Positions 1-61,215 of a stretch of DNA of 64,000 nt are shown one piece after another (the stretch's first letter is position 1; each line of letters opens with the position of its first letter). The notes below the pieces were generated by a model. It saw nothing but the letters and a program-made list of their open reading frames with translations. It searched no databases and had not been told where the DNA came from. Where the stretch lies: the IMG/VR virus record IMGVR_UViG_3300025018_000001, one strand, 5' to 3'. The translations under genes were made by a program, and so were the position numbers. Origin of the DNA: a virus. Its lineage: Duplodnaviria > Caudoviricetes.

Positions 1-3000
1 GGCTAGTGGTAACTAAGTCCCTAGGGCTATTCTTAAATGAGAAACCTGGACCGTTGGCCCTAGCGAACTCTTGCGCCCGGCGAATCTTGTCAACCGAGCC
101 ATCGGACATAGTAAATCCGCCGTCAGCGTGTCCACTTAAAGTTCTGTCATACTTATCATAAATATTATCTTCATCTTCTGAGTTTGCATAAAGTAATGCA
201 CCACCAGCTGTACCAACCGTAGCAGTAGCTAAAGCACTATATAACCCTGGACTGTTTGTTTTAAAATCATTATAAGCAGAAGAAGTATCTGTAGCTGCTT
301 TTTTTACAAAAGATGAAGTACCTTGAGCACCTTTAGTTAACTTTTTAGCTTTTAATAACTTAGCCAAGCCAGAGACACCAGCAATAGTAGCAGTGGCGCC
401 AGTACCCAAACCTATACCAGCTAAATTTAATAAACCTTTAACGCCGGTGGATATAAAACCACCATTAGCATAAGATCCTTCCTCGGTATTTTTACGCCGT
501 TGTCCTTCCAATATAAGTGCACTAAGACCAACAGTACCTAATGCAGATGCTTCAGCTTTACCTGCCTTATTACCTAATACCATACGTCCTAACTCAGCAG
601 GGATATCAGCTATACCACTAAGCATAGGTTTACCATATTCTAGAACTTTACCACCCATACCATAAGCAGCATCGTCATCGCCTCCAAACATAGAATATGC
701 TCCTAAAATACCTGCTGCACCTGCGGCCAAAGTACCATATCTTGAGTTAGATAGTTTAGAAAAACGATCTTGTAGAGCTAATTTTTTATCCCGTATATCA
801 TCTAAAGTAGGTGCTTTAGTAGTTAATAAATCTTTACCCATCAAAGCACCATCAATCATAAAACTTGCTGCTGTACCTACAACAGGTATATTACTGGCTA
901 GGCCAGAGGCCACTTCTAGTCCAGCACCTAGATAATCACCCGTGGCTGCGCGCTCAGCAGCAAAACCAGCTGCTGCCACTGTACCAACACCAGGTATTTT
1001 CTTTAAGCCTATTTTACTAGCTAGTTTAGCAGAATACTTACTTGTTGTACCACTTATAGCAGAGGTTATACCATTTGAAAAATTAGCGGTACCACTCCTT
1101 AAAGCGTCCAATATAGGTTTAAGTTTTCTACCTTGTTTTGCAGTTAATACTTCTTCCCCAGCAGTAAGAAGAGCTGGTTGTTTATCACCAAAACCTGGGG
1201 TTAACTGTTTAACTGTACCTCCTGTAGCAAACTTCTGTATAAATCCTCCGTGAGCATTACCCTCAGCATTACCATTTACAGCCTCTGTATTTTTTGATAA
1301 AGCCTCCACTAAAGCATCTATAGCCCCTAAAGTTTTTGTAGACGCGTATTCAGCTGTCTTAGAAAGTGTATCAACAGTTGAACCAGTTTTTTCTTTAATA
1401 TCTCCGTAAACATCTCCAGTTTTAGACTTAGTACCTTCGTAAATCTTAGACATTTCTTCTTTAAGATTAACTTCTTCTCCTCTAGCCATTTTTTCTGTAG
1501 CAGACCTCACAGCATCCTGACCAGATGTTTTAATATATTCTTTTAAATCAGCAAATTTATCTTTTAAATCCTGAGCGCTTTGATTTACAGAGTCCTTTGT
1601 ATTACTACGTAGATCTGCATTAGGATTTTCGACTTTACGTTTGAACTCTTTAGCTTTCCATTCAGCATCAAACTTAACATCATCTTTTGTTTTTGTAAAT
1701 GAGTCAGATGCTGCACTATACTTAGCATCCCTATCGGATGAAGTTTTGTTAGGTGTAACTTTCAGGTCAAGAGTCTCTTCTGCAAACTGTTTCATAAACC
1801 CTTCAGAAGCATCCTTGAATCTACTTGTGGCAGCACCTTTCTTTAGTGTACTAAAAATACCGTCATCTTTCATTGCGGCGGCAAATATAGCAACCTCTTT
1901 GCCAAACTCCTTAACCATTTGTGGTAAATCATCACCAGTCATGCCTTGATTCATTTTGGCTGCGCCATAAACACCAAGGGCGGCGCCACCAGCACCTAAT
2001 CTTTTAATGTTATCTTCAGACATACCCATATTACGTGCCAACATCATGCCACCAGAGGCCCCACCAGCAGCATAACGCATAGTACCATACATCCTAGCCT
2101 TCTTAGCTTCCTCATCGCGTGAAGAGGTCAAAGAAGCCATTTGTGGGGCATAGTCAATAAACCCTACTTCATCTTCTCTTTTCTTTAAATCAGCTATTTG
2201 TTTGTCGTAAGCTTCAACTTTTTTATTAGAGAAGTTACTATTAAACGCCTGATAGATACCAAAACCAGCAGTAGCACCTGCTATGTTTTTAGAATTAAAG
2301 ATGCTGCTTTCTTTTGACTTAGCTATATTCTCATCTTGTATTCCCTGTACATTACTTACAGTTTTGTCAAAAGTAGGTGTCCCTTTCTTAGATACTAAAC
2401 CAAACCAAGATGTTTCGTCCTTCATATTAGCTTTCATTTCTGAAGCTAAGGTTTTAAAATCTAAACCTCCGAAAGCACGCTGGATAAGTTCTTCTCCTTT
2501 AAATGCCCCAGAACCAAAGAGACCGCTATCTGCTTTATTAGCTGCTCCAGCAATACCCATACGATCCACTAGTTGCTTAGTTAAGTCGTCTAAAGCTATG
2601 TTAGCTTTAGTAGCTTTTTCAGTATCACCAGAGGACAAAGCGTCATTTCTTATAGAAGCTACTCTATCTAAAGCCTCATTAAGTCTTTCGTTCTTTGTTA
2701 AGTTTGGTGAGATAGGTAAGAAATCTAAAGCATCCATAAAACTAGATTGCATAGCTTCAGAACCCGGTCTATCTGATAGATTAGCTAGTATTTCATCTAA
2801 CTTATCAACAGTCATTGCGGTATTTTCAGCAGTGTTACTAGTGTCTATCTTAAGTTCTGCTAGACCTAGATCACCTGTTTTGGCAACCATTTCAGTGTAT
2901 TTTGAAAAGTCTTTAGCTCCAATACTCGAACCAAAGCCTGAGGATAGATTTTTTATACTTTCCAGAGCAACTTTGGACCTCTCCACAGAGTAAAGCTGTT

Positions 3001-6000
3001 CAGCTGTACCTGACTTCTTGATATCCAATTCTTTTATTCTACTAGCACTCTTAGCAAATTCTGGTGACTTAATTAGTAAACGTTCCTGTGAAGAAAGGTC
3101 TGCTTTATTATATTTACCTAAATCTATATTAGCTAGCGAGGCATCTTTACCTTTAAGTAACCCAGAAGTCTCCACAGCTAAACCAGTTCTAGTTTTTTCA
3201 ACAGCTATATTTTCTTTAACTGCTCTTGTATTGGCCTCCATTGTTTTAGTTAGGTCAGCGAATACAGCTCTATATTGTAAAACTATTTGATTATTTTTAA
3301 GTATATCCTGTAGTTTCCTTATAGAGTCGTATAACCCAGTGGACATCTCAACACTACCAGCGTCTAAGCCGTCTAGATGCATTTTTTCAAGCTGTTCTAA
3401 ACTAGTTTTATATTCATGAAGAGGTTTATTATAATATTTTTCAAAGTCGTCTGACCAACCTTTCTGGAAAGGCGACTCACCAAAACCTTTAGTAGGGTCA
3501 AAGCCTTTATCACCTTGAATGATGGTAGAAGTATTTATATCACTAAAGAAACGCTCACCTAAATTAAAGTCTGTTTTAAAACTTTTCTTAGCAATACCTA
3601 TTAAACCTGCACTAGCACCAGTAACAAAAGTACCTAAGGCTTCGATACGTTCAGACATATCTTGTTCAATAGCTTTGGTGGGTAGTATAGATTCAACTAA
3701 ATCTTGCATGTTACTATCAAATTTACGTTCAGTAACTTTCAGAGTTTTAGTATTAAAGTAAGTAGCTACCCACTCAAAAATACCATCTGATGTTTCTTTA
3801 AGTTTTACAATGGCTTGCTGACCTGCTATATTATATCTATCCGCTGCATCATTAGTAAAAGTAACTAGGTCACCACTTAGTAATTTACCTTCACGTTTAG
3901 CTAACCCCGCAGTCTCTGTATTTGCTACACTTAGTGCCTTAGTAGCACCAAGATTATTTGTATTTGGGAATAAACGCTTCATAACTTCAGCGCCTAATAC
4001 ATCTTCTTTAGTAACATTCCCTTTAATACCTTTTACATTAAACTGAGGTTCTACATCAATCATTAATTGGTACCCTGCCTGTAGCTCATCAGCTCCCATT
4101 ATTCTAGCTATTTCATCTTGACCTAAACCCTCAGTAGGTATGTTGGACAAAGCTCTTTTAAACTCAGAATAAGTGTTATTAAAAGAGTCCTTTACTTTAG
4201 ATAGCTTATCCTGAAGGTTTTTAATATCTCCGTCATATACAGTTGACATAGGTGCGGCATTCTTCTTAGACACTAAGTTATTTAGTTTGCCTGTAAGTAT
4301 TTCTAAACTTTTAGCAGGGGCTATACTAATTTGATTACTAATAAGGTCACCGATTACTGGGATCTCTTTAGTTAAGTCTTTTAATTCACTTTTCCACTTT
4401 TCGGAACCGTCTGTTTTAGTAAGTGCTTCAATATGTTTGGCTGCCACACTAGAGTCTTTGGCGGCAAGATCTCGTATTTTAGACCTTTCAAAAGTACCTA
4501 TAAGTGTTTGGTAGTTATCTGCTGTTCTTAATATAACATTACCTAACTTGTCATAACCAGCGATCATGTTGTAATTTTCTCTAGCAATCTTGTCACTTAA
4601 TTTTAAAGCATCAGACTGTATTGAGGATAATGCATTTAAAGGATTTACATAAGTACCTAAATATTTCTGCTTATCAGCAACCTCAGGGTTTTGACTTCTA
4701 GACACGTCTTTTAATTTTTTCTGTAGATCTCCAGCAGATTTTTGTGTGTCACGTATACTTATTAAGTCTGTTTCATCTTTTGATATTGCCCCAAACATAG
4801 AGTCGGCAAAATCTTGAGAAGACCGTGTTGTATTCATAAACTCTGTTCCCAGAGCTTTTATAGCCGGTGTTAGTAGGCCTAAAGTTAATAACATGGGTGC
4901 TATAGCTTTAACCACACCCGCGTTGTCCTTTGCCCACTCTTTAAAGACATCTCCGCCAGCACCTAACTTCTTGGAAAATTCATCTATGAATATACCACCG
5001 GCAGCTGCACCTAATCCGGCAACTTCCGTAGCTACACCTAGGAAAGATGATGCAACTTTACCTACACCTTTTAAACCACCTGCGGCAAAGGCACCCTTTA
5101 CACCTTCTGATTTAGCGAATTTAGCAGCGGTACCACCGGCTAGGTCTTTGTATGTAACATCTTCACCTTTACCATATTTACCACCGCCAAGTGAAGATAC
5201 AACAGCACTTAACCAGGAGCCACCTCTAACCATAGATTGACCAACACCCTGGCCAGCTCTACCGGTCCCTTGAAGTCCCCCACCTACAGTATCGTTAAAA
5301 GATTTACCCGCAGATACAAGTAAATAAGCTGCCTTACCAATAGCAGATTCAAAGTCTCTAATACTACGCCCTTGTTCTCTACCTGGCTGACCTCCAATTA
5401 ATGTTTTTAATCCTCTAGAAGACGTATCTGTAGAACCTGCACCAATAACTTCAAAGGAAGCTGTTTTAAGTTCGTCTTTTATAGACCCTATTAAATTACC
5501 AACTATTGGTGTGCCACCAGAGAAGAAATTAGATATAGTGTCTAATATTTTAGCACCTTTAGATAAGTATGTAAATAAACCTAAAGCGGCTACGCCAGCA
5601 ATTTTGAAAGATTTAGGTATAGCTGACACAGTTTCTGCCATCGCTTTCATACTTTGTAAACCAAATTTAGCTGCAGGAAAAGCTATCTTACCAAAAGCTA
5701 ATTGTAATTCTAAAAATGCAGCTTTAGTCTGTTCAACTTGTTTCGAATATGTTTGCATTAATTCAGCATTTCTTCTAGAAGCAGAGCCTTGTGAATTCAT
5801 ACTATGCTGAACACCATCTAAAGCTTCTTGCCAATTCTCCATAAGAACAAGTAGAGAGTTATATTGTCTGGTACCACCTATAGCCTGTGCTACTGTCAAT
5901 TTCTGTGCACTATTTAGTTCTTTCCACTTCTCCGCTAAGTCGCCTAGTATTTCAAAACCCCCGCGTAATTCACCTTCACCAGTTACCGTTGCTACGTTTA

Positions 6001-9000
6001 ATTTAGCTAGCTCATTAGGGCCTTTCTCAGAAGACAGTCTTCTCATTATAAATCTTAATGACGTACCAACCTCTTTACCGGACTGTCGGGTAACAGACCC
6101 TATTGAGGCCACAATACCGTTCAATTGGTCAAAAGTTATACCAGCAGTACTAGCAGCAGCAGCCGACTTTTTAATAGCTTCAGCCATATCACCAGCAGTA
6201 ATAGCATGTTTAGATTCAACCTCAGACCATGAATCCAAGAACCGCATAGACCTATCACCCTCTGTCCTAAATATCTTCATGGCAGCTGTTAAAGCTTCAG
6301 TAGCATCTTTAGCTTTTAGAGTTGTAACGTTACTTGCTAGCATAGATGTTTGTGTTCTATCTATTACTTCAGCTTGTGATAGACCCTGCTGTGCGTAAAC
6401 AACCATAGCGTCTAAAACACCTGTTGTAGGTGTACCATATTGCTTGGCCATTCCAACAGCTGAGCTTTGTAGACCCTCAAAATCAGTACCTTTGGAGGGC
6501 ATAACCATTTTTAACTTAGCCATTCCAACTTCAACTTCAGCTACGGTTTCTACGGCTTCTTTGAGCTTATCTACACCACCATAAATTAGAGAAGATGCTG
6601 CACCCCATTTTATGGCACGTTCAATGGCACCTAAGAAACCACGATTAGCTCCCGCTAAAGAGGCAGCCATATCTTCCTGCTTGGCAGTGAATATACCTAC
6701 TGTTTTTCCTGCACTATCAACAGATTCATTAAGTTTATGGAATAGTACGCGTTGGTTTTCTATAGGTTTTCCTGAGTCATCAAATACTTTTGCATCGTAG
6801 GAGTATCTTTCACCAATTTTAGCACCACCCTCAGCACTACCTTTACCATAATATTCACGTAGTTTAGAAATGTTTCTCTTATGTAAATTCTGCTGCATTT
6901 CTGGGTCAGCCCATTTAGGTACTTGTACTACACCTGTCTCACCCCAAACACCTGGGCCTCCAGACTGTGTAGCTCTATCCATACTAACTTTAGATAGCTT
7001 ATTTTCAGCATCTTTAAGTAGTTTTATTGTATTTTCTAAGTTTTTACTTTCAACAGATAAAGGACTATCAGAAACATTAAACTGTTTAAATAACTCTAAG
7101 GCACTGCGTAAACGAGTTATTCTCTCTGAGGCTGCCTCAAAATTCCAAGCCTCGGCTATTTCTGGTCCAAGTCTTTCCAAGAGTTTACCGTTAGCCATTA
7201 ATGCTAATGTTTCATCATTCATCTCTGTAAGATCTTTGATAGCATTTCTTGCCTTATCTGTGGGGGCGGTAATGTTGCCTCTATTTTTACCAGAAAGATC
7301 ACCAGTTATGTCATCAAAAACCTTTTTAAGTAATTCACTATCCGGGTCGGTAGTATCACCTAAATCTCTATTAGACTTCCGTTGTATGTCAACAGGTGAT
7401 TGGTAAACCCCAGCAGCTTTAGCTATATCAGGGAAAGCCCAAACTTTATTAGCAGTGTATATGTCGCTTCTCTTACCAGTATCTGCAATTATTTTCTGCT
7501 GTACGGCGTTGACGGCTGATTCAAAGTTATTGTATGCTTTCCCTTCTTCATTACCACCCATACCCATGACGCTCGTATACATATTCTCAGCGTCATCTGC
7601 CTTTTTAAGTAGGTATTCAATCTCAGCATCTTTATATAAACGCCATGCTGTAGCAATCTCCTCACCAGACATTCCTTGGTTTGGATCTTGTCTATTTAAG
7701 ATTCCTGCATTTTTAGTTAAGTCTAAGAAATCTGAAGTATGTATACCGCCCTGCTTTTTGGCGTTATTAATATAATCCTGTGCTTCCTTAGTTAATTTAT
7801 TTGCTTCATTATCAAAATCCATACCTCTAGCTTTATATAGAGATTTAGATGCATCTCGTAATAAGCGTAGATTAGCTAATTCAGCTACAGGCCCATTACC
7901 CTCATAGGGTTGCATACTCTGCGCTCTACCTGCGGCAGATTTACGTTGTTCCTCAGTTGTTTTGAACTTATCTATTTTTTGGTTTATACCACCAATTCCA
8001 GAATCTTCATCTTTGAATACTCCGCCAGAAATACCTGAAGCACTACTATTTATATTAGATGACGATACTAACTGACCAAGTAATTTAACAGAGAAAACTA
8101 AACTATCATTCAAACCTGCTATGAATACAGGTATGGCTCCACCCCCAGTTGCTGGTAAAGTAGGTCCTCCTGTACCTGGGCCACCACTTGATGGTATATT
8201 TGGTGGTACATCTCCGCCGCTAAATCCTGGATGAGGAGGCTCTTCTCCTCTACTACCTGCATAACTAGAGGTTTCATACTGTGGTGGTATAGTAGTAATA
8301 ATAGAAGTAGTAGACTCTGCACTCTTAGGTGCACCCATAGAAGCTCTTTTTACTTCTTCTTTATCTTCATTTAAACTTAAAGATATGTTTCTACCTGCTT
8401 CAGGTAGTATATCTTTCCTAGTACCGGAAACTTCAGATATTCTATCTAGTCTAGCGATAAGTATTTCCAAATCACCCAGACGTGCATTTGCTTTAGATAT
8501 TTTATTTATATCTTTTTCCTTAGCGTCATCTGGTATATCAGCTAACTTAGCTACATATTCAGGAGATGTAAGTATACTAGCTTGTTTTCTATCACTCATA
8601 GGTGCTAGACCTAAAGTATTCTCCATAGAGCTAATTAACTCTTTTATTGGTCCCATAGAGACTTTACCAGAAGTAAAGTCTTCTCTATTACCACCTATAA
8701 GTTGTTTTGCTTGTATGTAGTCTGCTTGGTTAACACCTTCCTTACCTAAGGATTCAAAAGTTTTTACTAGCTCAGCATATGCACCGCTACTTCTAAATGT
8801 CTTAGCTACGGAGTCCATACCTGTTTTAAAGTCTACATCAAACTTATCATCAACCGAATAACCACCAGTTCTAAACTTGTACATTGGGTCATTAACATCA
8901 GTAACCATTCTTGAGACGTCAATACCTCTAGGTGGTGCACCATCTTTTGATTCATAACGTTTACTTAAAATTTTAAATGCTACTTCAGCACTTATAGGTT

Positions 9001-12000
9001 TTTCGCTATTTGCTTGTATACCTTTAACAGCTAATTGTTCTATTGTGCCTTGTAAATCACGTAGAAATCCCTCAAAACCTAGTTTATTAACTAAGGCGTC
9101 TGTAAGGTCAGACCTACTCATATTAGTAGTATCACCTAAAGGTATACCTGTAGATGCTGCTTGGTCTTTTAATTCCTGAGTAGAAAATTTACCAAAAGTA
9201 TTACGTAGAGAGTCTTCATTTATGGACTTAAACTTCTTTAAATCATCATAGCTTTTATTTTTTTCTAATTTACCAAGTAAACCTTCAAGACCTGCCTTAC
9301 CTGTTGTAACACCTTTAACCAATTCACCAGCTATAGGTCTTTCTCCAGCATGTTTTACATCCATACCTTTCTGAATAGCAAATCTAAAAAACTCATTAAG
9401 TTGTGTATTACGTTCTCTATTGACAAAATTACTATCTATCTTGCCTGACTTGGTTTTACTAGATAAGCCTATTTCTCCAGTACCATCACCAAAGCCTCTT
9501 TTACTTTCATAAGCCCGCATAAGCCTTGTCATGCTTTCAGTATCTGTACCAGTGTTTATCTTAAATAACTGTGCATTTACAGCGGTATCTAACTTCATAT
9601 TAGACAATTCTTCTTTTAAGTAGCCTTCAATAAATGATTTGATTTTTATATCTTTTATCTTATTAAGCTCAGCTACAGCTGCTTCAGAGGCTTCACCTAA
9701 ATCATCTATACCTTTTATAGACTTGTCATCAAACTTAGCCCCTACTTTCTCGTAGATAGCCCGCATAACTCTACTAACAGATTCGCCGCCTGAAGTCATA
9801 TTTAGGTCTTGCTCTTTACTTGCAAGTATACCTACTTTTTCTTTAGGTGATAAGTAAGATAAATCTTCAGTAGTAAAAGGTTTATCAAGGAACGAATACC
9901 CTTTAGAACTATCAAACTTTTTACTAAATGCCTGGGACATATAAGATAGTGGTAAGTCACCTTGTGATGGCTGTTTAGCATCATAAGAATAGTAGTCACC
10001 AAATTTACCAGCTGTCGAATCTATATCTTTAGTAAGCATCTGGAAATGTTTGTAGATGTCATTTCTAGCCTCAGATGTTTTGGCAGTATGAAGTTCAATC
10101 TGGTCACCATCATAATCCAATTTTTGGGCATGAGCTACATATTTAGGTAAAACAGCGGATATAGCGCTATTTAGTTTATCTATAGTACCTGTTAAAGCAT
10201 TAGCTTGTGTATCATCCCCAACAGTACGTGCAGCCTCTCTTTCTTTAGATAAGCTTTTAACTTTATCTTTTATAGAATTATAGACGTCTTCAAAAGCCCC
10301 CATATCCATTTCTGGTGTACCTGGAACCATTAAAGCGTCATCACCTATACCACCAGCAGTTTGTACAAGCTTAGCTTTGTAAGGCTTCAGAGAAGATGTA
10401 CCAGTGAATGGGAAACGCACACTCTCAACAAAGGGGCTTAACTCAGTATCTATATATTTCTTTATATCGTCAGCACGTTCCTTTGGTTGTATCTTACTGG
10501 CAGTTTTTTCCAAAGCACTTGAATATTCTAAAAGATCTTTCAATGTACCTTGAAAATTTTTATCTTCATCTTTATTTAATACAGTACCTTTATCTTTATC
10601 GTATCTCTTAGTGAAGTTAACCTTAAGTTTTTCAGCCAACTTACTGGATACACCCAGTTCATGTTGTTTAAGGACAGGCATACCAATATCTTTGTATTTA
10701 GATACATTTTGTGCGTGTTCTTCGGTAAGTTTCTCTATAGTAGATATTTCTTGTCCTAAGTCTAAACCTTCTATACCTTTTAGTGTTTGAGAAAAAGCAG
10801 TTAGTTCTTCTGTCTTATCCACAGTAGCGTTAGTAGCTTTAGCTAAAACAGATGGTATGTTTCTAGTGAAAAAAGTTCTGGCTACCGACCCTTTTTTACC
10901 TACAAGATTTTTACGTAAAGTATCTTGATAAGACTGTTTTGATCTATCAAGGTCTTCTTGACGTTTAGTTACCTGATTATTATACTTCTCCTCAGAGTTA
11001 GCACCTCTACCATAACTAAATATACTGTCTTTGTTGCCTAAAGCATTAGAGACACCTGTCATAACATCTAACCTAGTAGAAGTATCAGTAGCTTTAGCTA
11101 GAACACTTGTATCAGCAACGTTAGGATTACCTGTACCAATCAGCATATTCTTCATAGCTGCTAAAGCAGTAGGAGAATTAAAACCCTCTTTTGTACCTAA
11201 ATGCTTAACAAAGTCAGACTCACTACCTTTCTGATTGTCAAACTTTCCACTAAGATTATGTTTACTGTTATAGAAGTTTTGTACACCTGTACTTAAGGAA
11301 CCTTCTTCTTTAGATAATTTACCCTGGTCATCCAATTTAACAAGAAGCTGCATAAGTTCTTGTTTAACTTTATTAACTTTAGCAACCGCCTCCTCTGTGT
11401 TTGATTGCTCAAGTCCAGTGGATCTACCTCGGTCATCCTTTGCAAATAGTGAAGACATTGCATTTGCAGCAGTGCTACCAAAAGCGCCCGACATACCAGT
11501 AACGTCAGTATCTAATAACATGCTAGTGTCTTTATTATAGAAAGCCTGTAATGATCTAGACTTGTCAATAACATCTTGAAGTTTACTACCTGTCTTTTTT
11601 ATACCATAAGCGCCCGCTTGCATTGGGTCAGCATAAGATGTTCTAGATATAGACCTTGGAATATATAAGTCTTCACCAGGGGCATCTTTACTTGTGGTAG
11701 ATGGTATAGTTGTCTTGTAAGCTCCTGGTAATTTATCAGTATCAAATATAGTGCCAAGGAGTGATCCTGGGTCGCCTTCATTAAAAGTCTTAGTTGCGTC
11801 TTTATTAACAGATTTAAGATCTTTTATATCAATTGACTTGACTGCACCTAATACTTTATTTTTGTACTCCTCATTAGTATTTACTAAGTAAGTAAGTATA
11901 TTATCGTAGTGTTCGGCCTGTTTGTCAGTGAAATTTTCATTCAGACTTTTCATGAAGGCAGAGTCTTCACCAAACGTAGAAGTATACGCAGCATAAGCAG

Positions 12001-20785: not shown

Positions 20786-20916
20786 AATTATTCTCCTTAA
20801 TCAGATTTATAATTTTAAAAAAATTCAGGTTAGTTTTTCGGTTACTTGGCCTTTCCTTTCTATATACTACAGGTTAGTTTATTAGTATATTCCTAATATA
20901 AGAGGTTACTTAATAG

Positions 20917-24070: not shown

Positions 24071-24075
24071 TTTTA

Positions 24076-24980: not shown

Positions 24981-26048
24981 TTACGAACGGTCAATAACCC
25001 CGATACCTAACATACGACTATCTAAACAAGCAAAACCTAATTCTGCCCAACCAAAGAAACCCTGCTTCTGTACACGTAGAAGAGTTGGGTCCTCATGAGC
25101 TTCGTACTCTTTTCTAACAGGCATAACCAAAGAATCGTTAGCAGTCATATCGAAACCATAAATCTGAGTCTCACCTAAAGCAGTTACAGTACCATCAGCA
25201 TCTGTAACGTTAGGATTATCAAGGGTGTAAGCGTTATACTTATCGGTACCGTCTGCAAGGAATTTACCGTATGCAGAAGTACTTCCATTAATATTATACA
25301 ATCCAGGAGCACCTAAATGCTGAACTTCATGTAAAGTTACGTTCCAGATACTTCCCATACCAGCAGCTACGAAAACTTCTCTACGGGTAATTGGGTCGAT
25401 GTCTGTGTCTGTCCACTCACGTATATCTGCAGCATCTTCTGGAGATACATACAAATCGGTAAGAGTACGGCCTAAACGTTTAAAACCTACCATCATCTTA
25501 TTTACCAACTCTTTAGAAAGATAACCAACACCAGTGAGGCCAGTACCAATTTCATAAATTGGGGCTGGTCGTGCACCTAAGAGGCCTTTTCCAGAAAAAC
25601 CAGAAGTTGCAGCAGGTACAATTACTCTCCAACCACATTCTTCTTCATAATTTGCTAAATCTTTTGCAACTCTAGCGGCGACTCTTTGAACAACGTCGAT
25701 ACGGGAATCACGTGCATAGGTAATCTTCCAGTCTGCGGAAGCATTGATACTGAAAGTAGGGACATAAACCTCTTCACCGATACCCTCGATGAAGTTCTGA
25801 GCTTGATAACCCAACCCAGGAAGAACCCAGACAGGAATCTCAAAATCCTCAGCAACTGGATAAACTGCTTGTGCACCAGGTGCCAAACGTTCAACAGCAA
25901 AAAGCTGGCGCATAATAGATTCAAGCTCTACTTTTTGTAATATAGGTGTAGTAATAGCGGCTGCGAAAGCCCTATAAGCTGCCATACCTTCTGGAGTCTG
26001 AACTTCAGCGGTAGCGGCAAACAATTTTCTCATTTCATTAATATCCAT
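24981..26048 (-). CDS. Major capsid protein (HK97 fold)
   Basis: 355 aa after scaffold and decoration genes. Capsid-like pattern (PILQKVELESIMRQLF..YARDSRIDVVQRVAARVAKDLANYEE) and a strong terminator. Confidence 0.85.
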   Translation of the reverse strand: MDINEMRKLFAATAEVQTPEGMAAYRAFAAAITTPILQKVELESIMRQLFAVERLAPGAQAVYPVAEDFEIPVWVLPGLGYQAQNFIEGIGEEVYVPTFSINASADWKITYARDSRIDVVQRVAARVAKDLANYEEECGWRVIVPAATSGFSGKGLLGARPAPIYEIGTGLTGVGYLSKELVNKMMVGFKRLGRTLTDLYVSPEDAADIREWTDTDIDPITRREVFVAAGMGSIWNVTLHEVQHLGAPGLYNINGSTSAYGKFLADGTDKYNAYTLDNPNVTDADGTVTALGETQIYGFDMTANDSLVMPVRKEYEAHEDPTLLRVQKQGFFGWAELGFACLDSRMLGIGVIDRS

Positions 26049-44103: not shown

Positions 44104-44146
44104 TGAGCCTCCAAAATAGAAAGGCGCCAATACTTAATTAAAAGTA

Positions 44147-45762: not shown

Positions 45763-45791
45763 ATTATACATCATTAGTACCTACTTGTCAA
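45763..45791 (-). promoter_or_regulatory. Consensus sigma70 promoter
   Basis: Exact TTGACA-17 nt-TATAAT on the minus strand. Confidence 0.85.
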
Positions 45792-48492: not shown

Positions 48493-48689
48493 ACGCCGCC
48501 CACTGTGCCAGGTTTATACATACGCTCTCCTCTCTTATTAATTATTTAACTTCTTTACTCCTTTTATATATCTCAGTTAGTTAATTTGTACGGCAAGTTT
48601 TGGGCTTTTCGACGCACACATATCTCCCCTCTCCACACGACCACTAGTAGCCCAACACGCGGCTAGAGGCGAAATAAGGTACCATCACG

Positions 48690-56254: not shown

Positions 56255-56566
56255 ATGAACAACTTATTAAAATTGTACAGAGAGCTGAAACCTGAGAATA
56301 ATGAAGAAGCCAAACTCGCAGTTGTACTTGCCGCTGCTGAGGTTTCATTTCCCCTTGGTTGTAAAGTGAAAGTAATGGGAACAGGTTATATTGCTGAGGT
56401 TGTGAAGTACAACAAAAACCTCGGTGGATTTTATCCTGGTGTACGTTATCCTGTTCTTGTAAAGATTATACGGTCAAAGGATAAGAAGTTCAGGAAAGCA
56501 GTTGGAATGATATTCGAGTATACACCTGACCAGCTCAAAAAGATTAAGGTGAAGGCTAATGTCTAG
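56255..56566 (+). CDS. Early hypothetical protein
   Basis: 103 aa; preceded by GCCCTC-TTCG-GAGGGC hairpin. Confidence 0.7.
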   Translation: MNNLLKLYRELKPENNEEAKLAVVLAAAEVSFPLGCKVKVMGTGYIAEVVKYNKNLGGFYPGVRYPVLVKIIRSKDKKFRKAVGMIFEYTPDQLKKIKVKANV

Positions 56567-56753
56567 AATCATTCTAATAACCGGTCATTATCCTATTATT
56601 GTTAATGGAGAAGACACAGGTAAAACGGAATTCGTTGTATCTCACGGTATTAATGAAGATACTGGAGATGCTATTATACTACCTAATGATCCACCTCATA
56701 CATTCGAAGGTTCTTACTATAGTCCTGAAATGAATGAGTGGATTCTACCATAA
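56559..56753 (+). CDS. Early small protein
   Basis: 64 aa, coupled to upstream ORF. Confidence 0.65.
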   Translation: MSRIILITGHYPIIVNGEDTGKTEFVVSHGINEDTGDAIILPNDPPHTFEGSYYSPEMNEWILP

Positions 56754-56764
56754 GGAGCTTTATC

Positions 56765-56992
56765 ATGTCATCAGAAGAATTAACATGCTCAGTTTGTGAA
56801 CGAGCTGGTTGTGAATGTATTTGTGATTTGGTTGTTAATAAAGAAGATTATGATGCCGTTGTACATCTGGCAAAGAAACTTCTTAAAGGCGCCAACATCT
56901 GTATGGAAGAACAATCTTTAATCCAGCCTTTCTTCTCTATTGTAAAGGACAATGCTGCTATCATCGGTAAGTTGAATCTATTCGATGAATAA
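56765..56992 (+). CDS. Early Cys-rich small protein
   Basis: CSVC..CECIC, AAGGAG RBS. Confidence 0.7.
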   Translation: MSSEELTCSVCERAGCECICDLVVNKEDYDAVVHLAKKLLKGANICMEEQSLIQPFFSIVKDNAAIIGKLNLFDE

Positions 56993-56994
56993 CA

Positions 56995-57040
56995 AGACTC
57001 CCTGCCAGGCACTAGCCTGGTGGGGTTTCTTCATCTTTTT
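56995..57040 (+). terminator. Intrinsic terminator
   Basis: AGACTCCCTGCCAGGC-ACTA-GCCTGGTGGGGTTT followed by a T-rich run. Confidence 0.65.
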
Positions 57041-57123
57041 TAAAAAACCCTGGAGCTTCGTGAAGAACTCTTGTGGTAGTTCGAACGTGGGGACCCTGCA
57101 GCTTCGGGCCGAGTACCGTGCTA

Positions 57124-57210
57124 GTACCATCGCTGTTTGGGGATGGGGATTAGTGGTACGGGTTTTTTGAGTATAGTCTATGTTTATCCACCAATTTAAA
57201 GGAGTTTGCT
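57124..57210 (+). promoter_or_regulatory. Early regulatory cassette 11 (degenerate)
   Basis: GTACCA...GGGGATGGGGAT-TAGTGGTAC (57161) GGG T6 GAG...AAAGGAG. Confidence 0.65.
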
Positions 57211-57450
57211 ATGAAACTAGTTCAGCTTGTTGTATTCATTTCTGTGGTTCTTTACGGCCAGTTCGTTTTCGCGGCTATATCTTACGAGAAAATCAGCTGT
57301 CTTGTGGGCGATTCAGTTATGTTCTTGACCGTTCCTATGGACAGTAACTGGGACAATTTGCAAATGGAGGATGCGGGCAAAGCAGTATGCGAGTCAATGG
57401 CGTTGGTAAGAATAATTCCGGGGCAGGTACTTGATGCAGAGGAGGAGTAA
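57211..57450 (+). CDS. Small exported protein
   Basis: Signal-peptide-like N-terminus, 79 aa. Confidence 0.65.
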   Translation: MKLVQLVVFISVVLYGQFVFAAISYEKISCLVGDSVMFLTVPMDSNWDNLQMEDAGKAVCESMALVRIIPGQVLDAEEE

Positions 57451-58299
57451 ATGGAAGCATGGACGGCGCAGTACCGTTATACTGGACCCTATAGACTGGA
57501 TGTTACGGTCAAAGGTCAGGACATGACGGGTAAGTTATTCGCACCTACTTGGGATATGGTCATGAATTATAAGGCATCCAAGGGAACGGAAGCGGATAAA
57601 AAGATTTACATTGAGCAGTACCATAAGGTAATTCTTAATGTAATCAAAAATCATCGCAAGGAATGGGATGAATTGCTGGCACGCAAGTACGTGGTGATTG
57701 TGTGCTTTTGTAAGGCAGGTGAGTTTTGTCATAGACACCTGCTAATGCATTACCTTACACAGTATGGTGCTGTATGCCATGGGGAGATTACTGACTTCTC
57801 ACGCTGGAGCAAAGAACGTAAGGTGATTAGTGAATTCAAAGGCCAATACGGTTGGGCATCCAACTTCGCGCCGTGTAAGTTCACGCATGAGAACATTGAA
57901 TATGATTCTACCGAGACATTTTATCAGGCAATGAAGTATGGGCCTAATGATATGTTGAAGATTAAGGTGGATAATAAATTCATTGAAGTCAATGCACGTG
58001 AGTATATTTCCAAACTACCGGCGGGTAAAGCCAAACGCATGGGCAAGAAAGCAAAACTGCCTTGGAACTGGGACACCCTGCGAGTGGATGTTATGGAACT
58101 TGCGTTGAATTACAAGTATGACCAGCCTTACTACAAAAGTCTGTTGCTTAGAACGGACGATGCCTTGATGATTGAAGGCAATTGGTGGCATGACAATTTT
58201 TGGGGAGACTGCTCCTGCCCTAAGTGCGAGCATATCAAAGGTGCAAATACGCTTGGTCAGTTGACTATGCGTAAGCGTGATGCACTACGGAAAGTTTAA
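57451..58299 (+). CDS. DUF488-like + NADAR (YbiA) fusion protein
   Basis: N-half FAPTW..VCFCK..FCHRHLL. C-half FKGQYGWASNF..STETFYQAMK..AKRMGK..W..VMELAL..K..LLRT..LMIEGNWWHDNFWG..GANTLGQLTM. Confidence 0.85.
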   Translation: MEAWTAQYRYTGPYRLDVTVKGQDMTGKLFAPTWDMVMNYKASKGTEADKKIYIEQYHKVILNVIKNHRKEWDELLARKYVVIVCFCKAGEFCHRHLLMHYLTQYGAVCHGEITDFSRWSKERKVISEFKGQYGWASNFAPCKFTHENIEYDSTETFYQAMKYGPNDMLKIKVDNKFIEVNAREYISKLPAGKAKRMGKKAKLPWNWDTLRVDVMELALNYKYDQPYYKSLLLRTDDALMIEGNWWHDNFWGDCSCPKCEHIKGANTLGQLTMRKRDALRKV

Positions 58300-58301
58300 C
58301 A

Positions 58302-58360
58302 TAGTGGTACTGCTCTTTCGGGAGTAGTATCACACTCAATTCTAACGAAGGAGAATTTGT
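58302..58360 (+). promoter_or_regulatory. Early regulatory cassette 12 (variant)
   Basis: TAGTGGTAC on the 5' arm of GTGGTACTGCTCT-TTCG-GGAGTAGTATCAC; AAGGAG RBS. Confidence 0.6.
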
Positions 58361-59917
58361 ATGAATCATTACAATGAAGTTGCTGGGGTTCTTGAAACAG
58401 GTGCTGAATTAGTATCTCCTCATCTGCGTTGGTTAATTCGTAACGCAATTCTGGAGCACTGCGGACCTGCGGCAGTAAATCTGATTGCTTACAATGAGTC
58501 AGTCCCTGCTGAACACTACGGCATAGCTCATGCACCAAGCAAATCTCTGGTGTTGAATCTTGAGAAGCATTTCTACAATGCCGTCATCAAGGTTCAGGAA
58601 GATGAGAATATGTATGCATCACTGCGTACACTAATTCTCCATGAGCTTTTGGACACTGCCAAGCATGAAGCACATCATCTGCTGGTAGCTTTCGAAGAAG
58701 GTAACTTTGAAGATAGCGACCTTGACGAAGAAGGTGCTAAAGTTGCGGGCAAACTTTCATGGCAGGTTGCACGTGATTGGGATGTTAACATAGTCCTATT
58801 CGGCACATTCCTTGATACGCTTATTGATGATTTCATTGCTGATGTCAAAGAAGCTACCTTGGAAACACCAACCATGTGGAAAGACCTGCAGGTATACATG
58901 CATGAGAATTGTCTGGGGTATTACAATCCAGATAAAGATATGGAACTCTCAATCATGAATACTTTCGAGGCCCTTGCCAAAGATGACAATCCATGGATGA
59001 CGGAACCTGCTAAGTTCCTTGATACTACTATCTGCGAAACTGAACGCACTCAGGTGCCAACAGTTCCTGCGGTGGACGGTATTGATATACCTGTGGATAA
59101 TTACGAGTCGCAGATGCCTATTCATCCTCAAGAAGTTACTCCTGCGGGTATGAGTATGTTTGAAGCTTTGGCTCTGGTGCAAAACAGTGGAGCACAGCCT
59201 ATAATCAGTCAAAGTACTTTCGAAAGATTTATGGCGCAGTCATTAAAGGAGGATGGGTACGTACCACCCTCACTACCTGCTATGGGTGATTCTTATCCAG
59301 TGTACGATGGCGGTGATGACTATGACTGGAATGAAGAGCCTGAATTGGCGCCTGTTGCTCCGATAACTCCGGTCATGCAACCTATGACACAAACAGCTCC
59401 TGTAGCTCCTGTAGCTCAAGGTGCTGGTGGCCATGGCATGGCTAAGGTTATCGAAACGGTATTCCGTACTATATTCTGGCATGTAGTCAATAAAGGTGAA
59501 TTCACACATGAGGGTAGTTATAATAACCCTGCGGTTGTGATGCAACCTGTTAGTATTGCACACATTCCGGGTGCTTTGGATATATTCACCAACATGGATA
59601 CCTTGGACAAGAATGGTAAGTATGCCAAGAATCAGCCGTGTTCCATGGGTATAACTGGTATGTTAACTAAGGAAATGCTTCCTAAGTATACCATGTTCCT
59701 GAACATTGCTGGAACCGTTCACCGACGCTCATTGGTTGCACAAAATCCGAATGCAGTTGACGGACAAGGTGCACTCAAAACTTGGGCGAAGGAAGCTCGT
59801 CAAGGTACCAAGATTATGTACGTACTTGGTGATGAGAAAAATCCCGGAGTTCGTGCAAGTATTAAGCTCACTGCTGGAAGTCCTCTCGGTCAGGAGGAAT
59901 ACAAGCTGTGGACCTGA
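58361..59917 (+). CDS. HExxH metallopeptidase-like protein with acidic Pro-rich linker
   Basis: AKHEAHHLL motif; two globular halves separated by a P/A/D/Q-rich stretch. Confidence 0.55.
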   Translation: MNHYNEVAGVLETGAELVSPHLRWLIRNAILEHCGPAAVNLIAYNESVPAEHYGIAHAPSKSLVLNLEKHFYNAVIKVQEDENMYASLRTLILHELLDTAKHEAHHLLVAFEEGNFEDSDLDEEGAKVAGKLSWQVARDWDVNIVLFGTFLDTLIDDFIADVKEATLETPTMWKDLQVYMHENCLGYYNPDKDMELSIMNTFEALAKDDNPWMTEPAKFLDTTICETERTQVPTVPAVDGIDIPVDNYESQMPIHPQEVTPAGMSMFEALALVQNSGAQPIISQSTFERFMAQSLKEDGYVPPSLPAMGDSYPVYDGGDDYDWNEEPELAPVAPITPVMQPMTQTAPVAPVAQGAGGHGMAKVIETVFRTIFWHVVNKGEFTHEGSYNNPAVVMQPVSIAHIPGALDIFTNMDTLDKNGKYAKNQPCSMGITGMLTKEMLPKYTMFLNIAGTVHRRSLVAQNPNAVDGQGALKTWAKEARQGTKIMYVLGDEKNPGVRASIKLTAGSPLGQEEYKLWT

Positions 59918-60267
59918 TACGAACTGGCATTGTATTAAACGCTAGGGAAATCCGAAATGAATTTGGGTACACACATAAGTATCCGAATTCATTTGGGAAA
60001 GGCACAAAGGTGTGGATTCACTATGACAATAGTGGAAACATACTTAAGATTGAACCTATGGAGGTTTGTGGGGAGTAGTGGTACTGCTCTGTGATGGTTT
60101 GGGTTCTGCTGTTCCCTGCTGTTTCGTTCTCCTTTCCCTGCCCCTTCTTGGGGGTGGGGATGGGGATGGGGATTTTGGGGGATAGTGGTACTGGGTTGAT
60201 GATGGGCTTGTGGGTGTTCCCTTGCCTTGTTGTACTTTCGTTTTATCATTTTTTAAGGAGATTTATC

Positions 60268-61215
60268 ATGAGTAATGCATCCAAATTCGTAGCTATTGCT
60301 GTTGCTGTACGTGCCGCTGGTTCCAAGAATGCCGCTACCGGTCAGTCTCATGGTGGTGTTTACTACCCAGAGCACGTTGTGAATGGCGTCAAGAACACTG
60401 CGCGCTTTGAGGCTAATGTGTATATTAACGGTATGAATTACACCGACCCTGAAACCGGCACCGTGAAGGAAGGACGGAATGAAATCGTGCGCATCGTTGC
60501 GTGGAATGGCCGTAATGCTAAGCCGGGTTCTGGACTCGCTGACCTGTGTGCAAAGGCTATCACCAAAGGCAAAGAGTTCTCCTGTGAGCTGGACATCCGC
60601 ACCTTCAAAAAGCGTTTGTTCATTGACGACAAACCTCAGGTTGACCATATGGGTCGTGAGATTCTTGTCAACGGTACCAACTTTGTCATGAAAGGTCTCC
60701 CTATCTGGGGAAATGATTCTGACCAAGTTATCCTTGACGAAATTCAGAACTACCGTCAGACCGGTCAGGCTACTTTTGCCGCTCGTCCACCTTTCTGGAA
60801 TGTTGTTGGTCATGCTGACGCCGCTATCTGGGATGTTATCAAGAAGTCCCGTCGTGCCGCTCAGTATATTCCGGGTAGCACCACTTTCGGTCATGCCCGT
60901 GTTGTAGTTCCGAATGGTGCTCAGCTCCTGAATGCTGGTGGTAACGCTGGCAACATGGACCAAGCCGGTCTTATGGCGATGCTTCAAGCATTGATGGCTG
61001 GTCAGCAGAAACCGGCTCCTGTTGCAGTACCTGAACCTGTTGCTCCTGTTGTTCAGACTCCTGCTCTTCCTGCCGGTATCGACCCTGCTATGATGGCAGC
61101 TCTTCTGGCTCAGTTCGGTGGGGGTGCTACTCCTGCTGTTCAGACTCCTGCTGTTCAGACTCCGCCTGTTACTGCCGCCGCTGGTTCTGTACTCAACGGT
61201 CAGATGCCTATCTAA
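60268..61215 (+). CDS. Single-stranded DNA-binding protein (OB fold, long P/A/Q tail)
   Basis: VRIVAWNG..LADLCAKAITKGKEFSCELDIRT parallels the bacterial SSB pattern; low-complexity tail ending QMPI. Confidence 0.65.
   Translation: MSNASKFVAIAVAVRAAGSKNAATGQSHGGVYYPEHVVNGVKNTARFEANVYINGMNYTDPETGTVKEGRNEIVRIVAWNGRNAKPGSGLADLCAKAITKGKEFSCELDIRTFKKRLFIDDKPQVDHMGREILVNGTNFVMKGLPIWGNDSDQVILDEIQNYRQTGQATFAARPPFWNVVGHADAAIWDVIKKSRRAAQYIPGSTTFGHARVVVPNGAQLLNAGGNAGNMDQAGLMAMLQALMAGQQKPAPVAVPEPVAPVVQTPALPAGIDPAMMAALLAQFGGGATPAVQTPAVQTPPVTAAAGSVLNGQMPI

What the first reader, a model, noticed from the sequence alone, without database searches (positions are those of the whole stretch)
1..61215. System-level hypothesis: self-contained early transcription unit (tail-delivered RNAP + hairpin cassettes + phage SSB)
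Seen in one window: an RNAP-TMP fusion, a motif-defined early module lacking host-type promoters, an SSB as the last early gene, host-type sigma70 promoters on accessory genes, and a third motif on structural genes. Established: N4 virion RNAP uses hairpin promoters with SSB assistance. Inference: a three-tier programme that starts independently of host RNAP, in a lineage I cannot match to a described phage.
Basis: inference. Interest (0 to 1): 0.8.

Follow-up and report, generated by a model that had tools for sequence, protein, structure and literature searches.

The report
Tape-measure-fused RNA polymerase, early gene cassettes
An uncultured giant groundwater phage carries an RNA polymerase inside its 7,498-residue tail tape-measure protein, next to a block of short early genes with phage-specific start and stop signals, so it probably starts its own transcription the way Thermus phage P23-45 was shown to do in 2024.

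Summary
The sigma70 one does not exceed chance.

- **Fusion:** the minus-strand ORF 2..16954 is the first 5,651 aa of a 7,498-aa tape-measure protein. It holds a single-chain two-barrel RNA polymerase at about aa 1140-2750, with invariant GSKGV and D[FY]DGD motifs.
- **Early module:** the plus-strand block 49.2-61.3 kb holds about 25 short genes. They are punctuated by 17 co-oriented TAGTGGTMC boxes, 14 of them followed by G exactly 10 nt later.
- **Last gene:** it has an SSB fold, and a strong terminator follows it.

The N4 analogy is not supported. The hairpins favour the sense strand through G.U pairs, covary and are followed by T-runs, so they read as RNA terminators and 5' leader stems, not template-strand DNA hairpin promoters. 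Five boxes have no hairpin at all. The SSB is encoded in the module, so it cannot assist the first round of transcription.

The closest known system is Thermus phage P23-45 (gp96 virion RNAP plus gp64 non-virion RNAP). Close relatives of this phage also encode a separate 1,085-aa RNAP.

No sequence homology to gp96 was found. The polymerase sits inside the protein, not at its N-terminus, and the genome is about 260 kb. Verdict: a new variant of a known kind. Which polymerase reads which motif is inferred, not shown.

The parts
2..16954 (-). Giant tape-measure protein gene, first 5,651 of 7,498 codons (the C-terminus lies beyond the window start)
   Evidence: PF10145 and phrog_4211
8705..13537 (-). 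Single-chain two-barrel RNA polymerase module, about aa 1140-2750 (beta-like half first, then beta'-like half)
   Evidence: AF2 model; fold searches; motif conservation; hhalign to the free-standing RNAP
12917..12931 (-). GSKGV (aa 1342-1346) within the invariant GRK(L/F)TTR(Y/F)GSKGV, the beta-subunit-type catalytic lysine motif
   Evidence: present in all 13 family proteins
10103..10117 (-). DYDGD (aa 2280-2284), metal-binding motif of the beta'-like barrel
   Evidence: PF00623 matches this spot in the orthologues of G001, G002, G007 and G008
8120..8347 (-). Gly/Pro-rich low-complexity linker (aa ~2870-2945) between the polymerase and tape-measure parts
4991..6637 (-). Tape-measure core domain (phrog_4211 aa 3440-3988; PF10145 aa 3503-3694)
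24981..26048 (-). Major head protein
   Evidence: phrog_2522, E 9e-11
30500..32206 (-). Terminase large subunit
   Evidence: phrog_2, E 2e-24
49193..61268 (+). Early module: about 25 short plus-strand genes with strong AAGGAG ribosome sites, 17 TAGTGGTMC boxes, GC 41-49% against 30-38% elsewhere
49193..49267 (+). Two stand-alone boxes (49193, 49259) heading the module, with no hairpin: candidate entry promoters
   Evidence: same arrangement in G004
49672..55178 (+). Array of ten full cassettes (boxes at 49689, 50003, 50441, 51036, 51661, 52040, 52402, 53132, 53389, 55099). Each has a terminator hairpin whose 3' arm is the box, a T-run, G at +10, a leader hairpin, and a small hairpin before AAAGGAG
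50023..50045 (+). Example of the leader hairpin (9-bp covarying stem, conserved AUAUC loop). Five more copies lie near 50461, 51056, 51681, 52422 and 55119
   Evidence: 5 of 9 pairs have both-side changes
58302..58310 (+). Stand-alone box ahead of the 518-aa HEAHH protein gene (58361-59917)
60076..60191 (+). Two stand-alone boxes, each behind a G-run, ahead of the SSB-fold gene
   Evidence: conserved in G004 and of the same type in G001
60268..61215 (+). SSB-fold protein (315 aa): N-terminal OB fold, extra alpha/beta domain, disordered Pro/Ala tail
61225..61268 (+). Strong intrinsic-terminator-like hairpin (15 pairs) plus T-run that closes the module
45763..45791 (-). Perfect sigma70-type consensus (TTGACA-17-TATAAT) in the intergenic region upstream of gene 45510-45713
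20861..20878 (-). Example of the ACTAAC-N-TATA motif upstream of gene 19196-20785. Others lie at 24896-24908, 30487-30499, 41728-41747, 42793-42810 and 48565-48581

Best explanation
The window is part of an uncultured siphovirus-type phage of about 260 kb from aquifer and cold-spring water.

Its tape-measure protein (7,498 aa) carries a complete single-chain beta-beta' (two-barrel) RNA polymerase at about aa 1140-2750. A Gly/Pro linker joins it to the tape-measure core and membrane-type segments.

Inferred mechanism:
- The tape-measure protein leaves the tail at infection, and its polymerase transcribes the plus-strand module 49.2-61.3 kb without host RNAP.
- The box TAGTGGTMC, with a T-rich 9-nt spacer and a G start, is the promoter.
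- In the array the same box is the 3' arm of the preceding gene's terminator hairpin, and the spacer is that terminator's U-tract, so stop and restart signals overlap.
- Transcripts begin with a covarying leader hairpin, and a small hairpin sits before the ribosome site.
- The module encodes small host-takeover ORFans, a DprA/SLOG-like protein, a cell-wall hydrolase, a DUF488-NADAR protein, an HExxH protein and, last, an SSB that most likely serves replication or recombination.
- A second, free-standing ~1,085-aa RNAP encoded outside the window, together with host RNAP, then expresses middle and late genes. The ACTAAC-N-TATA motif and a few sigma70-like sites would serve these.

Shown here: the domain architecture, folds, motifs, their orientation and conservation. 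Inferred: delivery of the polymerase, and which polymerase reads which motif.
For: Fusion and fold:
- TMP domains.
- The family has members of 7,280-7,998 aa (one listed protein, P0008, is 3,984 aa) and 29 IMG/VR loci.
- D[FY]DGD is invariant and GRKxTTRxGSKGV is invariant.
- The AF2 model has pLDDT 81.7.
- In the representative-wide VIA search 13 of the top 20 matches are two-barrel RNAPs or QDE-1/RDR2, Z 6.2-8.4.
- All 50 top rows of the second-look search are entries containing an RNAP (the matched chain is its largest subunit) or QDE-1, Z 7.3-8.4, with 194-470 residues aligned.
- PF00623 hits the DFDGD region of the orthologues (E 0.002-0.005).
- hhalign links the family to the free-standing RNAP at the beta PF..RN/FEDQ motifs (E 0.0013) and at DFDGD (E 0.0032).

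Module and signals:
- Box counts, orientation and the N9-G rule.
- Sense-strand bias of the hairpins. Covariation in the leader stem.
- Terminator-like sites: 31 found against 12.5 expected.
- No plus-strand sigma70 match of 10/12 or better in the module.

Conservation:
- G004 (SSB 66-70% identical) keeps the synteny, the box positions and the cassette layout.
- G001 (81% identical in the RNAP part) is syntenic up to the second cassette, where its contig ends.

Second RNAP: a 1,085-aa ORF in G001 with PF00562 plus PF00623 and a 1,109-aa ORF in the complete genome G007.

Precedent: P23-45 gp96 virion RNAP, gp64 non-virion RNAP, and a pre-early cluster with one conserved promoter motif and a conserved terminator motif (PMC10770324). 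The P23-45 intergenic cassettes read directly show the same order: hairpin plus T-run, second hairpin, AT-rich motif, ATG.
Against: - No transcript data exist. No RNA run is on record as holding this DNA, and contigs cannot show RNA ends.
- No virion proteomics exist, so delivery of the polymerase is inferred from the tape-measure context and from P23-45.
- The box also occurs outside the module: in G001 at 3819 and 13013, and in the own genome up to about 31 kb beyond the window end according to note e1-5402159. It could therefore be the promoter of the free-standing RNAP.
- More distant relatives with the fusion (G006, G007) have the SSB block but no TAGTGGTAC cassette array. The cassettes are therefore not obligatory partners of the fusion.
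- Fold Z-scores of 7-8 are middling by the tool's own calibration.
- No profile link to gp96 was found.
Confidence: 0.6

Rival explanations
1. The TAGTGGTMC-N9-G box is the promoter of the free-standing ~1,085-aa RNAP, not of the tape-measure-fused one. The fused polymerase would start from other, unrecognised sites (for example in the AT-rich repeat fields that flank the module), or would only make the first transcript that includes the second RNAP gene.
For: Boxes of the stand-alone type occur far from the module, on the strand that carries the second RNAP gene (G001 3819 and 13013, with the RNAP gene at 23334-26591). In P23-45 the non-virion enzyme covers the larger region, 49 kb against 9 kb. 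Degenerate box-like words fill the flanking repeat fields at 48.7-49.1 kb and 62.75-63.7 kb.
Against: The second RNAP gene lies downstream of box-headed units and has no other recognisable phage motif before it, so something must read a box or a host promoter first. The module next to the divergent junction is the densest box field and has no host-type promoter.
Confidence: 0.22
2. The cassettes are ordinary host-RNAP units: intrinsic terminators followed by promoters for the unknown host's sigma factor. They would then be mobile promoter/stem-loop cassettes that shuffle early genes, like the promoter-early stem-loops of T4-type phages (recalled from memory). The polymerase domain would serve another purpose, such as pulling DNA in or priming.
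For: The hairpin plus T-run is a textbook intrinsic terminator. Wastewater relatives show joints exactly at cassettes, that is, gene shuffling between cassettes (table 5). TTGA(A/G)G follows the T-run, and a TAnAAn word follows the leader stem.
Against: The TTGAAG to TAAAAC spacing is 21 nt, and only one copy has TATAAT. No plus-strand sigma70 match of 10/12 or better exists. A 9-nt invariant box at fixed distance from a G, also present without any terminator, is not a sigma70 feature. The minus-strand genes of the same phage do carry canonical sigma70-type sites.
Confidence: 0.1
3. N4-type mechanism: the hairpins extrude as DNA structures that the injected polymerase recognises, helped by the phage SSB.
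For: The box is embedded in an inverted repeat in 10-12 cassettes, and an SSB-fold gene is linked to the module in the window, G004, G006, G007 and G008.
Against: The stems rely on G.U-type pairs that exist only on the sense strand. The complementary strand folds 5-12 kcal/mol worse. Five boxes have no hairpin. Stems and loops are far longer than the N4 5-7 bp stem with 3-nt loop (general knowledge). The polymerase is of a different superfamily. The SSB is made only after the module is transcribed.
Confidence: 0.05

Closest known systems
Thermus phage P23-45 gp96 (tape-measure-fused virion RNAP) with gp64 non-virion RNAP; Chaban et al. 2024, PMC10770324
   Same: Both have a two-barrel RNAP with DxDGD inside a giant tape-measure protein. 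Both have a second free-standing two-barrel RNAP in the genome. Both have a cluster of short genes transcribed opposite to the structural genes, each flanked by a sequence-conserved hairpin plus T-run and a conserved start motif. Later genes carry host-type promoters.
   Different: No detectable sequence or profile similarity. Here the polymerase is internal (aa ~1140-2750 of 7,498) behind about 1,100 aa of unknown function, not N-terminal (327-1124 of 5,002). It keeps cellular-type beta motifs (FEDQ, GSKGV), and its model aligns to an RNAP clamp domain (3qqc_A, Z 8.4), whereas gp96 is clamp-less. The genome is about 260 kb against 84 kb, from cold water rather than a thermophile. The second RNAP gene is not inside the cassette module.
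Coliphage N4 virion RNAP with hairpin promoters and SSB (general knowledge)
   Same: An injected polymerase that transcribes early genes independently of host RNAP, with an SSB involved in the programme.
   Different: N4 vRNAP is a T7-like single-subunit enzyme. Its promoters are short DNA hairpins on the template strand, activated by host SSB. Here the enzyme is two-barrel, and the hairpins behave as RNA structures.
crAss-like phage phi14:2 gp66 virion RNAP (PDB 6VR4; cited in PMC10770324)
   Same: A single-chain two-barrel virion RNAP that is part of a very large protein in some relatives.
   Different: Podovirus-type virion with no tape-measure domain. It belongs to the QDE-1-like clade. 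No sequence match here.
Promoter-early stem-loop (PeSL) cassettes of T4-type phages (recalled from memory, not checked here)
   Same: Repeated promoter/stem-loop units between small early genes, which also act as recombination points. Joints at cassettes are seen in relatives.
   Different: PeSL promoters are sigma70-type. The box here is not.

Membership tests
Tape-measure-fused virion two-barrel RNAP (P23-45 gp96 type) | The RNAP catalytic DxDGD motif and a tape-measure domain lie in one ORF | tested here: met
   DYDGD at aa 2280; PF10145 and phrog_4211 at aa 3440-3990 of the same frame
Tape-measure-fused virion two-barrel RNAP (P23-45 gp96 type) | Two double-psi beta-barrel polymerase fold | tested here: met
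   The AF2 model matches RNAP largest subunits, QDE-1, AR9 and P74-26 gp62. A designed DPBB aligns 86 of 86 residues at 2.0 A (7dww_A). The beta-type GSKGV/FEDQ motifs lie upstream.
Tape-measure-fused virion two-barrel RNAP (P23-45 gp96 type) | Sequence homology to gp96 | tested here: not met
   hhalign of the family profile against gp96 aa 1-1250: probability 0.2%, E 0.31. tblastn against all deposited phages: no match.
Tape-measure-fused virion two-barrel RNAP (P23-45 gp96 type) | N-terminal position and clamp-less flat architecture | tested here: inconclusive
   The position differs (internal). The model's N-terminal part aligns to an archaeal RNAP clamp domain (Z 8.4, 167 residues), but a predicted model cannot settle the architecture.
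Tape-measure-fused virion two-barrel RNAP (P23-45 gp96 type) | Polymerase present in virions and active on DNA templates | not testable with these tools
   Needs virion proteomics and enzymology.
Tape-measure-fused virion two-barrel RNAP (P23-45 gp96 type) | Cluster of pre-early genes with its own conserved promoter and terminator motifs | tested here: met
   17 boxes, N9-G rule, hairpin plus T-run. The layout matches the P23-45 cassettes.
Tape-measure-fused virion two-barrel RNAP (P23-45 gp96 type) | Second, non-virion two-barrel RNAP in the genome | tested here: met
1,085-aa ORF in G001 (PF00562 plus PF00623) and 1,109-aa ORF in G007.
N4-type virion RNAP / hairpin promoter system | T7-like single-subunit polymerase | tested here: not met
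   The fold is two-barrel. The PF00940 search was uninformative because its controls did not ring.
N4-type virion RNAP / hairpin promoter system | Promoter is a short DNA hairpin on the template strand | tested here: not met
   Stems of 8-15 bp, stabilised by G.U pairs on the sense strand only. Five boxes have no hairpin.
Bacterial-type SSB (PF00436, OB fold) | OB fold superimposable on SSB | tested here: met
   The top 50 PDB matches are all SSBs: best E 3.6e-6, probability 1.00, target TM 0.55-0.76.
Bacterial-type SSB (PF00436, OB fold) | Passes the Pfam SSB model | tested here: not met
   No Pfam hit for this protein. Only 4 of 57 family members reach E <= 0.01 (best 3.2e-5).
Bacterial-type SSB (PF00436, OB fold) | Acidic C-terminal tip (D-D-D-I-P-F type) | tested here: not met
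   The tail is Pro/Ala-rich and ends ..NGQMPI. It keeps only the hydrophobic-Pro-hydrophobic end.
Intrinsic (factor-independent) terminators | GC-containing RNA hairpin directly followed by a U-run | tested here: met
   Consensus scan: 31 found against 12.5 expected. The cassette hairpins are the top plus-strand sites. Folding energies are -13 to -26 kcal/mol.

The most novel reading that the evidence does not exclude
This may be an independent, convergent fusion of a cellular-type beta-beta' RNA polymerase to a tape-measure protein in a widespread clade of ~260-kb cold-water siphophages. Overlapping terminator/promoter boxes would let the tail-anchored enzyme stop and restart at every gene as the DNA enters. 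Transcription by the anchored polymerase could then be what draws the first part of a quarter-megabase genome into the cell.
Probability: 0.25. Interest if true: 0.8.

Novelty: new variant of a known kind. Interest (0 to 1): 0.6.

Why it matters
So far a tape-measure-fused polymerase is known only from four closely related Thermus phages.

This finding shows the same strategy in a second lineage that profile searches cannot link to gp96 by sequence. That lineage is common in groundwater and wastewater metagenomes: 29 IMG/VR contigs, proteins of 7,280-7,998 aa, and identities down to 26%. It has a much larger genome and a polymerase that keeps cellular-type motifs.

That widens the case that tail-delivered transcription is a general solution for long-tailed phages. 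It also gives a rich alignment for structure work. Finally, it offers a very regular natural array of overlapping terminator/promoter/leader units that could be tested as orthogonal transcription parts.

Tried and rejected
- **Deposited phages:** megablast of 24 kb and tblastn of the RNAP part found no match.
- **PDB by sequence:** phmmer/hmmsearch with P0001:1-3500, A1, A4, the SSB and A2 gave only coiled-coil or chance hits.
- **Pfam/PHROGs:** nothing on aa 1-2000 or on aa 5000-7498 of the giant protein, nor on the small early proteins.
- **gp96 link:** hhalign of A1 against P23-45 gp96 found none.
- **Own genome:** not held.
- **RNA evidence:** no RNA holder is listed. Two wastewater runs labelled RNA-Seq look like DNA and are contigs only, so no transcript ends could be read.
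- **SSB homologue in G001-G003 and G005:** none found, but these records are fragments, and G001 ends inside the module.
- **Tape-measure N-terminus in G004 and G011:** none found. In G004 the expected position lies at or beyond the contig end.
- **PF00940 search:** nothing rang, controls included, so it says nothing.
- **Box pattern across IMG/VR:** apart from G004, G001 and G011 there were only single, probably chance, hits. Co-occurrence could therefore be scored in only two genomes (the window and G001).
- **Box arrays in G006/G007:** a k-mer and repeat search found none. G006 has a related GGTAGTG-T6 word twice.
- **AACTAACYT as the third motif:** marginal (8 against 3; 3 of 100 shuffles reach 8). 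The looser ACTAAC-N-TATA pattern is the better description.
Full report
**What the window is**

The window has no tRNA genes. No genome is held for it, and it has no relative among deposited phages.

Genes on the minus strand from 48.5 kb down to 17 kb include:
- PhoH (42826-44130)
- a ClpP-like protease (36888-37460)
- an endolysin (36112-36612)
- a dNMP kinase (34785-35396)
- terminase large subunit (30500-32206)
- major head protein (24981-26048)

The strand ends in one giant ORF, 2..16954.

The identical protein in public data is 7,498 aa long. Relatives sit on contigs that CheckV rates as 86-100% complete at 228-269 kb, so the genome is about 260 kb. The DNA is held by many aquifer runs and one cold-spring run.

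**The fusion**

Tape-measure models match aa ~3440-3990 (PF10145 E 2e-27; phrog_4211 E 2e-85). Upstream, the only D-x-D-G-D in the protein (DYDGD, aa 2280) is invariant as D[FY]DGD in 12 full-length homologues and 18 IMG/VR loci, at identities down to 25-30%.

An AlphaFold model of aa 1650-2750, built on 27 sequences, has mean pLDDT 81.7. The fold searches gave:
- **Foldseek:** mostly RNAP beta' chains, at weak E-values.
- **Representative-wide VIA search:** an RNAP clamp domain, RDR2, QDE-1, Pol I/II/III/IV, ASFV, vaccinia, archaeal, plastid, AR9, phiKZ and P74-26 gp62 polymerases at Z 5.8-8.4, plus a designed double-psi barrel (86/86 residues, 2.0 A).
- **Second-look search:** all 50 top rows are entries containing an RNAP (matched through the largest subunit) or QDE-1, at Z 7.3-8.4 with 194-470 aligned residues.

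Z of 7-8 is middling on the tool's own scale. The uniformity of the list and the motif evidence carry the call.

There the beta-type hallmark GRK(L/F)TTR(Y/F)GSKGV is invariant at aa ~1342 in all 13 proteins. It is preceded by APF..QQ.GRNIS and FEDQI.

Sequence links are weak but consistent:
- These motifs align to the free-standing phage RNAP of relative G001 at E 0.0013.
- The DFDGD region aligns to it at E 0.0032.
- Pfam's Rpb1 domain 2 model touches the DFDGD region of four orthologues at E 0.002-0.005.

The polymerase module therefore spans about aa 1140-2750, beta half first. A Gly/Pro-rich linker follows at aa ~2870-2945. The first ~1,100 aa and the last ~3,500 aa apart from the TMP core have no recognisable domain.

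**The early module**

From 49.2 to 61.3 kb the coding strand flips, and GC rises to 41-49%. About 25 short genes with AAGGAG ribosome sites follow.

Seventeen copies of TAGTGGTMC (one is TTGTGGTAC) lie on the plus strand between 49193 and 60183. Only six further copies occur in the other 52 kb, counting both strands. With one mismatch allowed there are 27 matches against 6.2 expected.

Fourteen of the 17 are followed by G exactly 10 nt after the box (background G is 24%), and 16 of 17 by a purine. In 12 of 17 that G lies 41-67 nt before the next start codon.

In ten to twelve copies the box is the 3' arm of a hairpin followed by T5-7. Two stem types exist: an 8-bp stem with a conserved ~10-nt loop, and a 13-15-bp stem with a tetraloop. 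Left arms change in step with the box variants (GGTAC/GTACC against GGTCC/GGGCC).

The stems contain G.U-type pairs, so the sense strand folds far better than its complement: -25.0/-16.2, -25.8/-14.2, -25.2/-17.3 kcal/mol in the window, and -28.6/-18.1 in G004. That is what an RNA terminator looks like, not a template-strand DNA hairpin.

Five boxes (49193, 49259, 58302, 60076, 60183) have no hairpin. Two head the module and two precede the SSB gene, each behind a G-run.

After the G, six cassettes have a 9-bp leader stem with a conserved AUAUC loop. Across these six and two G004 copies, five of the nine pairs show both-side changes, and two pairs are mostly G.U. A small covarying hairpin abuts AAAGGAG.

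My reading is that the box plus T-rich spacer plus G is a phage-specific promoter. In the array it is superimposed on the previous gene's intrinsic terminator. No plus-strand sigma70-type match of 10/12 or better exists in the module.

**The SSB**

The ORF called from the GTG at 60091 really starts at the ATG at 60268, behind AAGGAG.
- Pfam, PHROGs and PDB sequence searches are blank.
- An exhaustive HMMER search finds 194 representatives, and 4 of 57 aligned members reach the Pfam SSB model.
- The AF2 model (pLDDT 83.9) gives only SSBs as its top 50 PDB matches (best E 3.6e-6, probability 1.00).
- The protein has an extra domain and a Pro/Ala tail without an acidic tip.
- A 15-pair hairpin plus T-run follows it.

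The block DprA/SLOG-like, hydrolase, 518-aa HExxH protein, small gene, SSB is syntenic in G004, G006 and G007. It looks like a replication/recombination set, not a transcription factor set.

**Other signals**

Sigma70-type matches are not enriched anywhere. A perfect TTGACA-17-TATAAT sits upstream of gene 45510-45713, and an 11/12 site with TG lies at 62352-62325. Two identical TGTGTTATAAT boxes precede genes 33490-34065 and 36888-37460.

ACTAAC-N2-10-TATA occurs 14 times against 4.9 expected. Twelve copies are on the minus strand and most are intergenic, before structural or first-in-cluster genes. The word AAACTAACCT followed by TATA also recurs in the distant relative G007.

**Relatives and co-occurrence**

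- **G001** (81% identical in the RNAP part) is collinear with window 33.3-51.1 kb and ends inside the second cassette, with a box plus T-run at its last bases.
- **G004** carries the whole module with boxes at the same relative positions. It runs out about where the tape-measure gene should begin.
- **G006 and G007** are more distant fusion-bearing genomes. They keep the SSB block but have compact operon-like early regions without the box array. G006 has a related GGTAGTG-T6 word.

So the fusion is older and wider than the cassette array.

**A second polymerase**

G001 encodes a free-standing 1,085-aa protein with Rpb2 domain 6 and Rpb1 domain 2 matches, and the complete genome G007 has a 1,109-aa one. 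Stand-alone boxes of the G-run type lie upstream on the same strand in G001.

**Comparison with the known**

Chaban et al. 2024 (PMC10770324) showed that P23-45 gp96, a 5,002-aa tape-measure protein, carries an N-terminal two-barrel virion RNAP. It transcribes a 9-kb pre-early cluster from a conserved AT-rich motif and stops at a conserved 26-nt motif. One pre-early gene encodes the non-virion RNAP gp64.

Reading the P23-45 intergenic regions directly shows the same order of elements as here.

The differences are:
- no detectable homology
- internal position of the polymerase
- cellular-type beta motifs and a clamp-like region
- genome size and habitat
- the second RNAP gene lying outside the cassette block

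I therefore file this as working like P23-45, but as a distinct family: a new variant of a known kind.

**Limits**

Nothing here shows transcription, packaging or injection. The assignment of the box to the fused enzyme, rather than to the free-standing one, is inference (about 60:22).

Noticed in passing
window 61603-62352: The minus-strand gene 61603-62304 (233 aa, RBS AAGGAG) is more plausible than the overlapping plus-strand ORF 61559-62365. Four copies of the 16-bp perfect palindrome TTGGTACATGTACCAA surround it: two in its promoter region beside a TTGACT-16-TATAAT site with TG before the -10 hexamer, and two inside the gene. It looks like an autoregulated DNA-binding protein. A homologue is present in G004.
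   Followed up: partly
window 48690-49100 and 62750-63690: AT-rich fields of degenerate direct repeats (TAGTAGTA, AATAGTGGTGGTAGAAT) flank the early module on both sides and resemble the box core. Public assemblies break at 63541/63559. Possibly an origin, packaging or protein-binding field.
   Followed up: no
window 46044-46153 (minus strand): Rfam EGFOA RNA (RF02955), 44.2 bits against a gathering score of 37.7, in the long intergenic region upstream of gene 45973-46134.
   Followed up: no
window 58361-59917: A 518-aa protein with an HEAHH (HExxH) motif. The language-model search points to DUF2201_N putative metallopeptidases (score 0.90, lead only). It is conserved next to the SSB in G004, G006 and G007.
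   Followed up: partly
window 50000-61500 (relatives in wastewater runs X22, X23): Contigs of related strains join one cassette to another (for example 50474>53863, 50514>51026, 53888>58297). Gene content between cassettes therefore differs between strains, and the cassettes appear to act as recombination points.
   Followed up: partly
window 54094-55072 and 57451-58299: The early module encodes a DprA/SLOG-like protein (phrog_768), a cell-wall hydrolase (PF07486) and a DUF488-NADAR fusion. A wall hydrolase among early genes is unusual.
   Followed up: no
L040 (P23-45) 1-2100, minus strand: Read directly, P23-45 pre-early intergenic regions show a conserved hairpin plus T6, then a second hairpin (CTCCGTAC..GTACGGAG), then TTATTCCTTT abutting ATG. 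This is the same order of elements as in this window.
   Followed up: partly
L066/L067 (G001 1-32000): Around the free-standing RNAP gene lie a CCA-adding/poly(A) polymerase-type enzyme, an ATP-dependent DNA ligase, a helicase interrupted by a LAGLIDADG domain and a phiEco32-like COOH-NH2 ligase.
   Followed up: no
L048 (G007) 11700-11835 and 6125-6250, 9950-10230: Six tandem 17-bp repeats (TAAACTAGTAACCACCG) lie near the early region. Two paralogous genes are built of 15-bp (pentapeptide-type) repeats.
   Followed up: no
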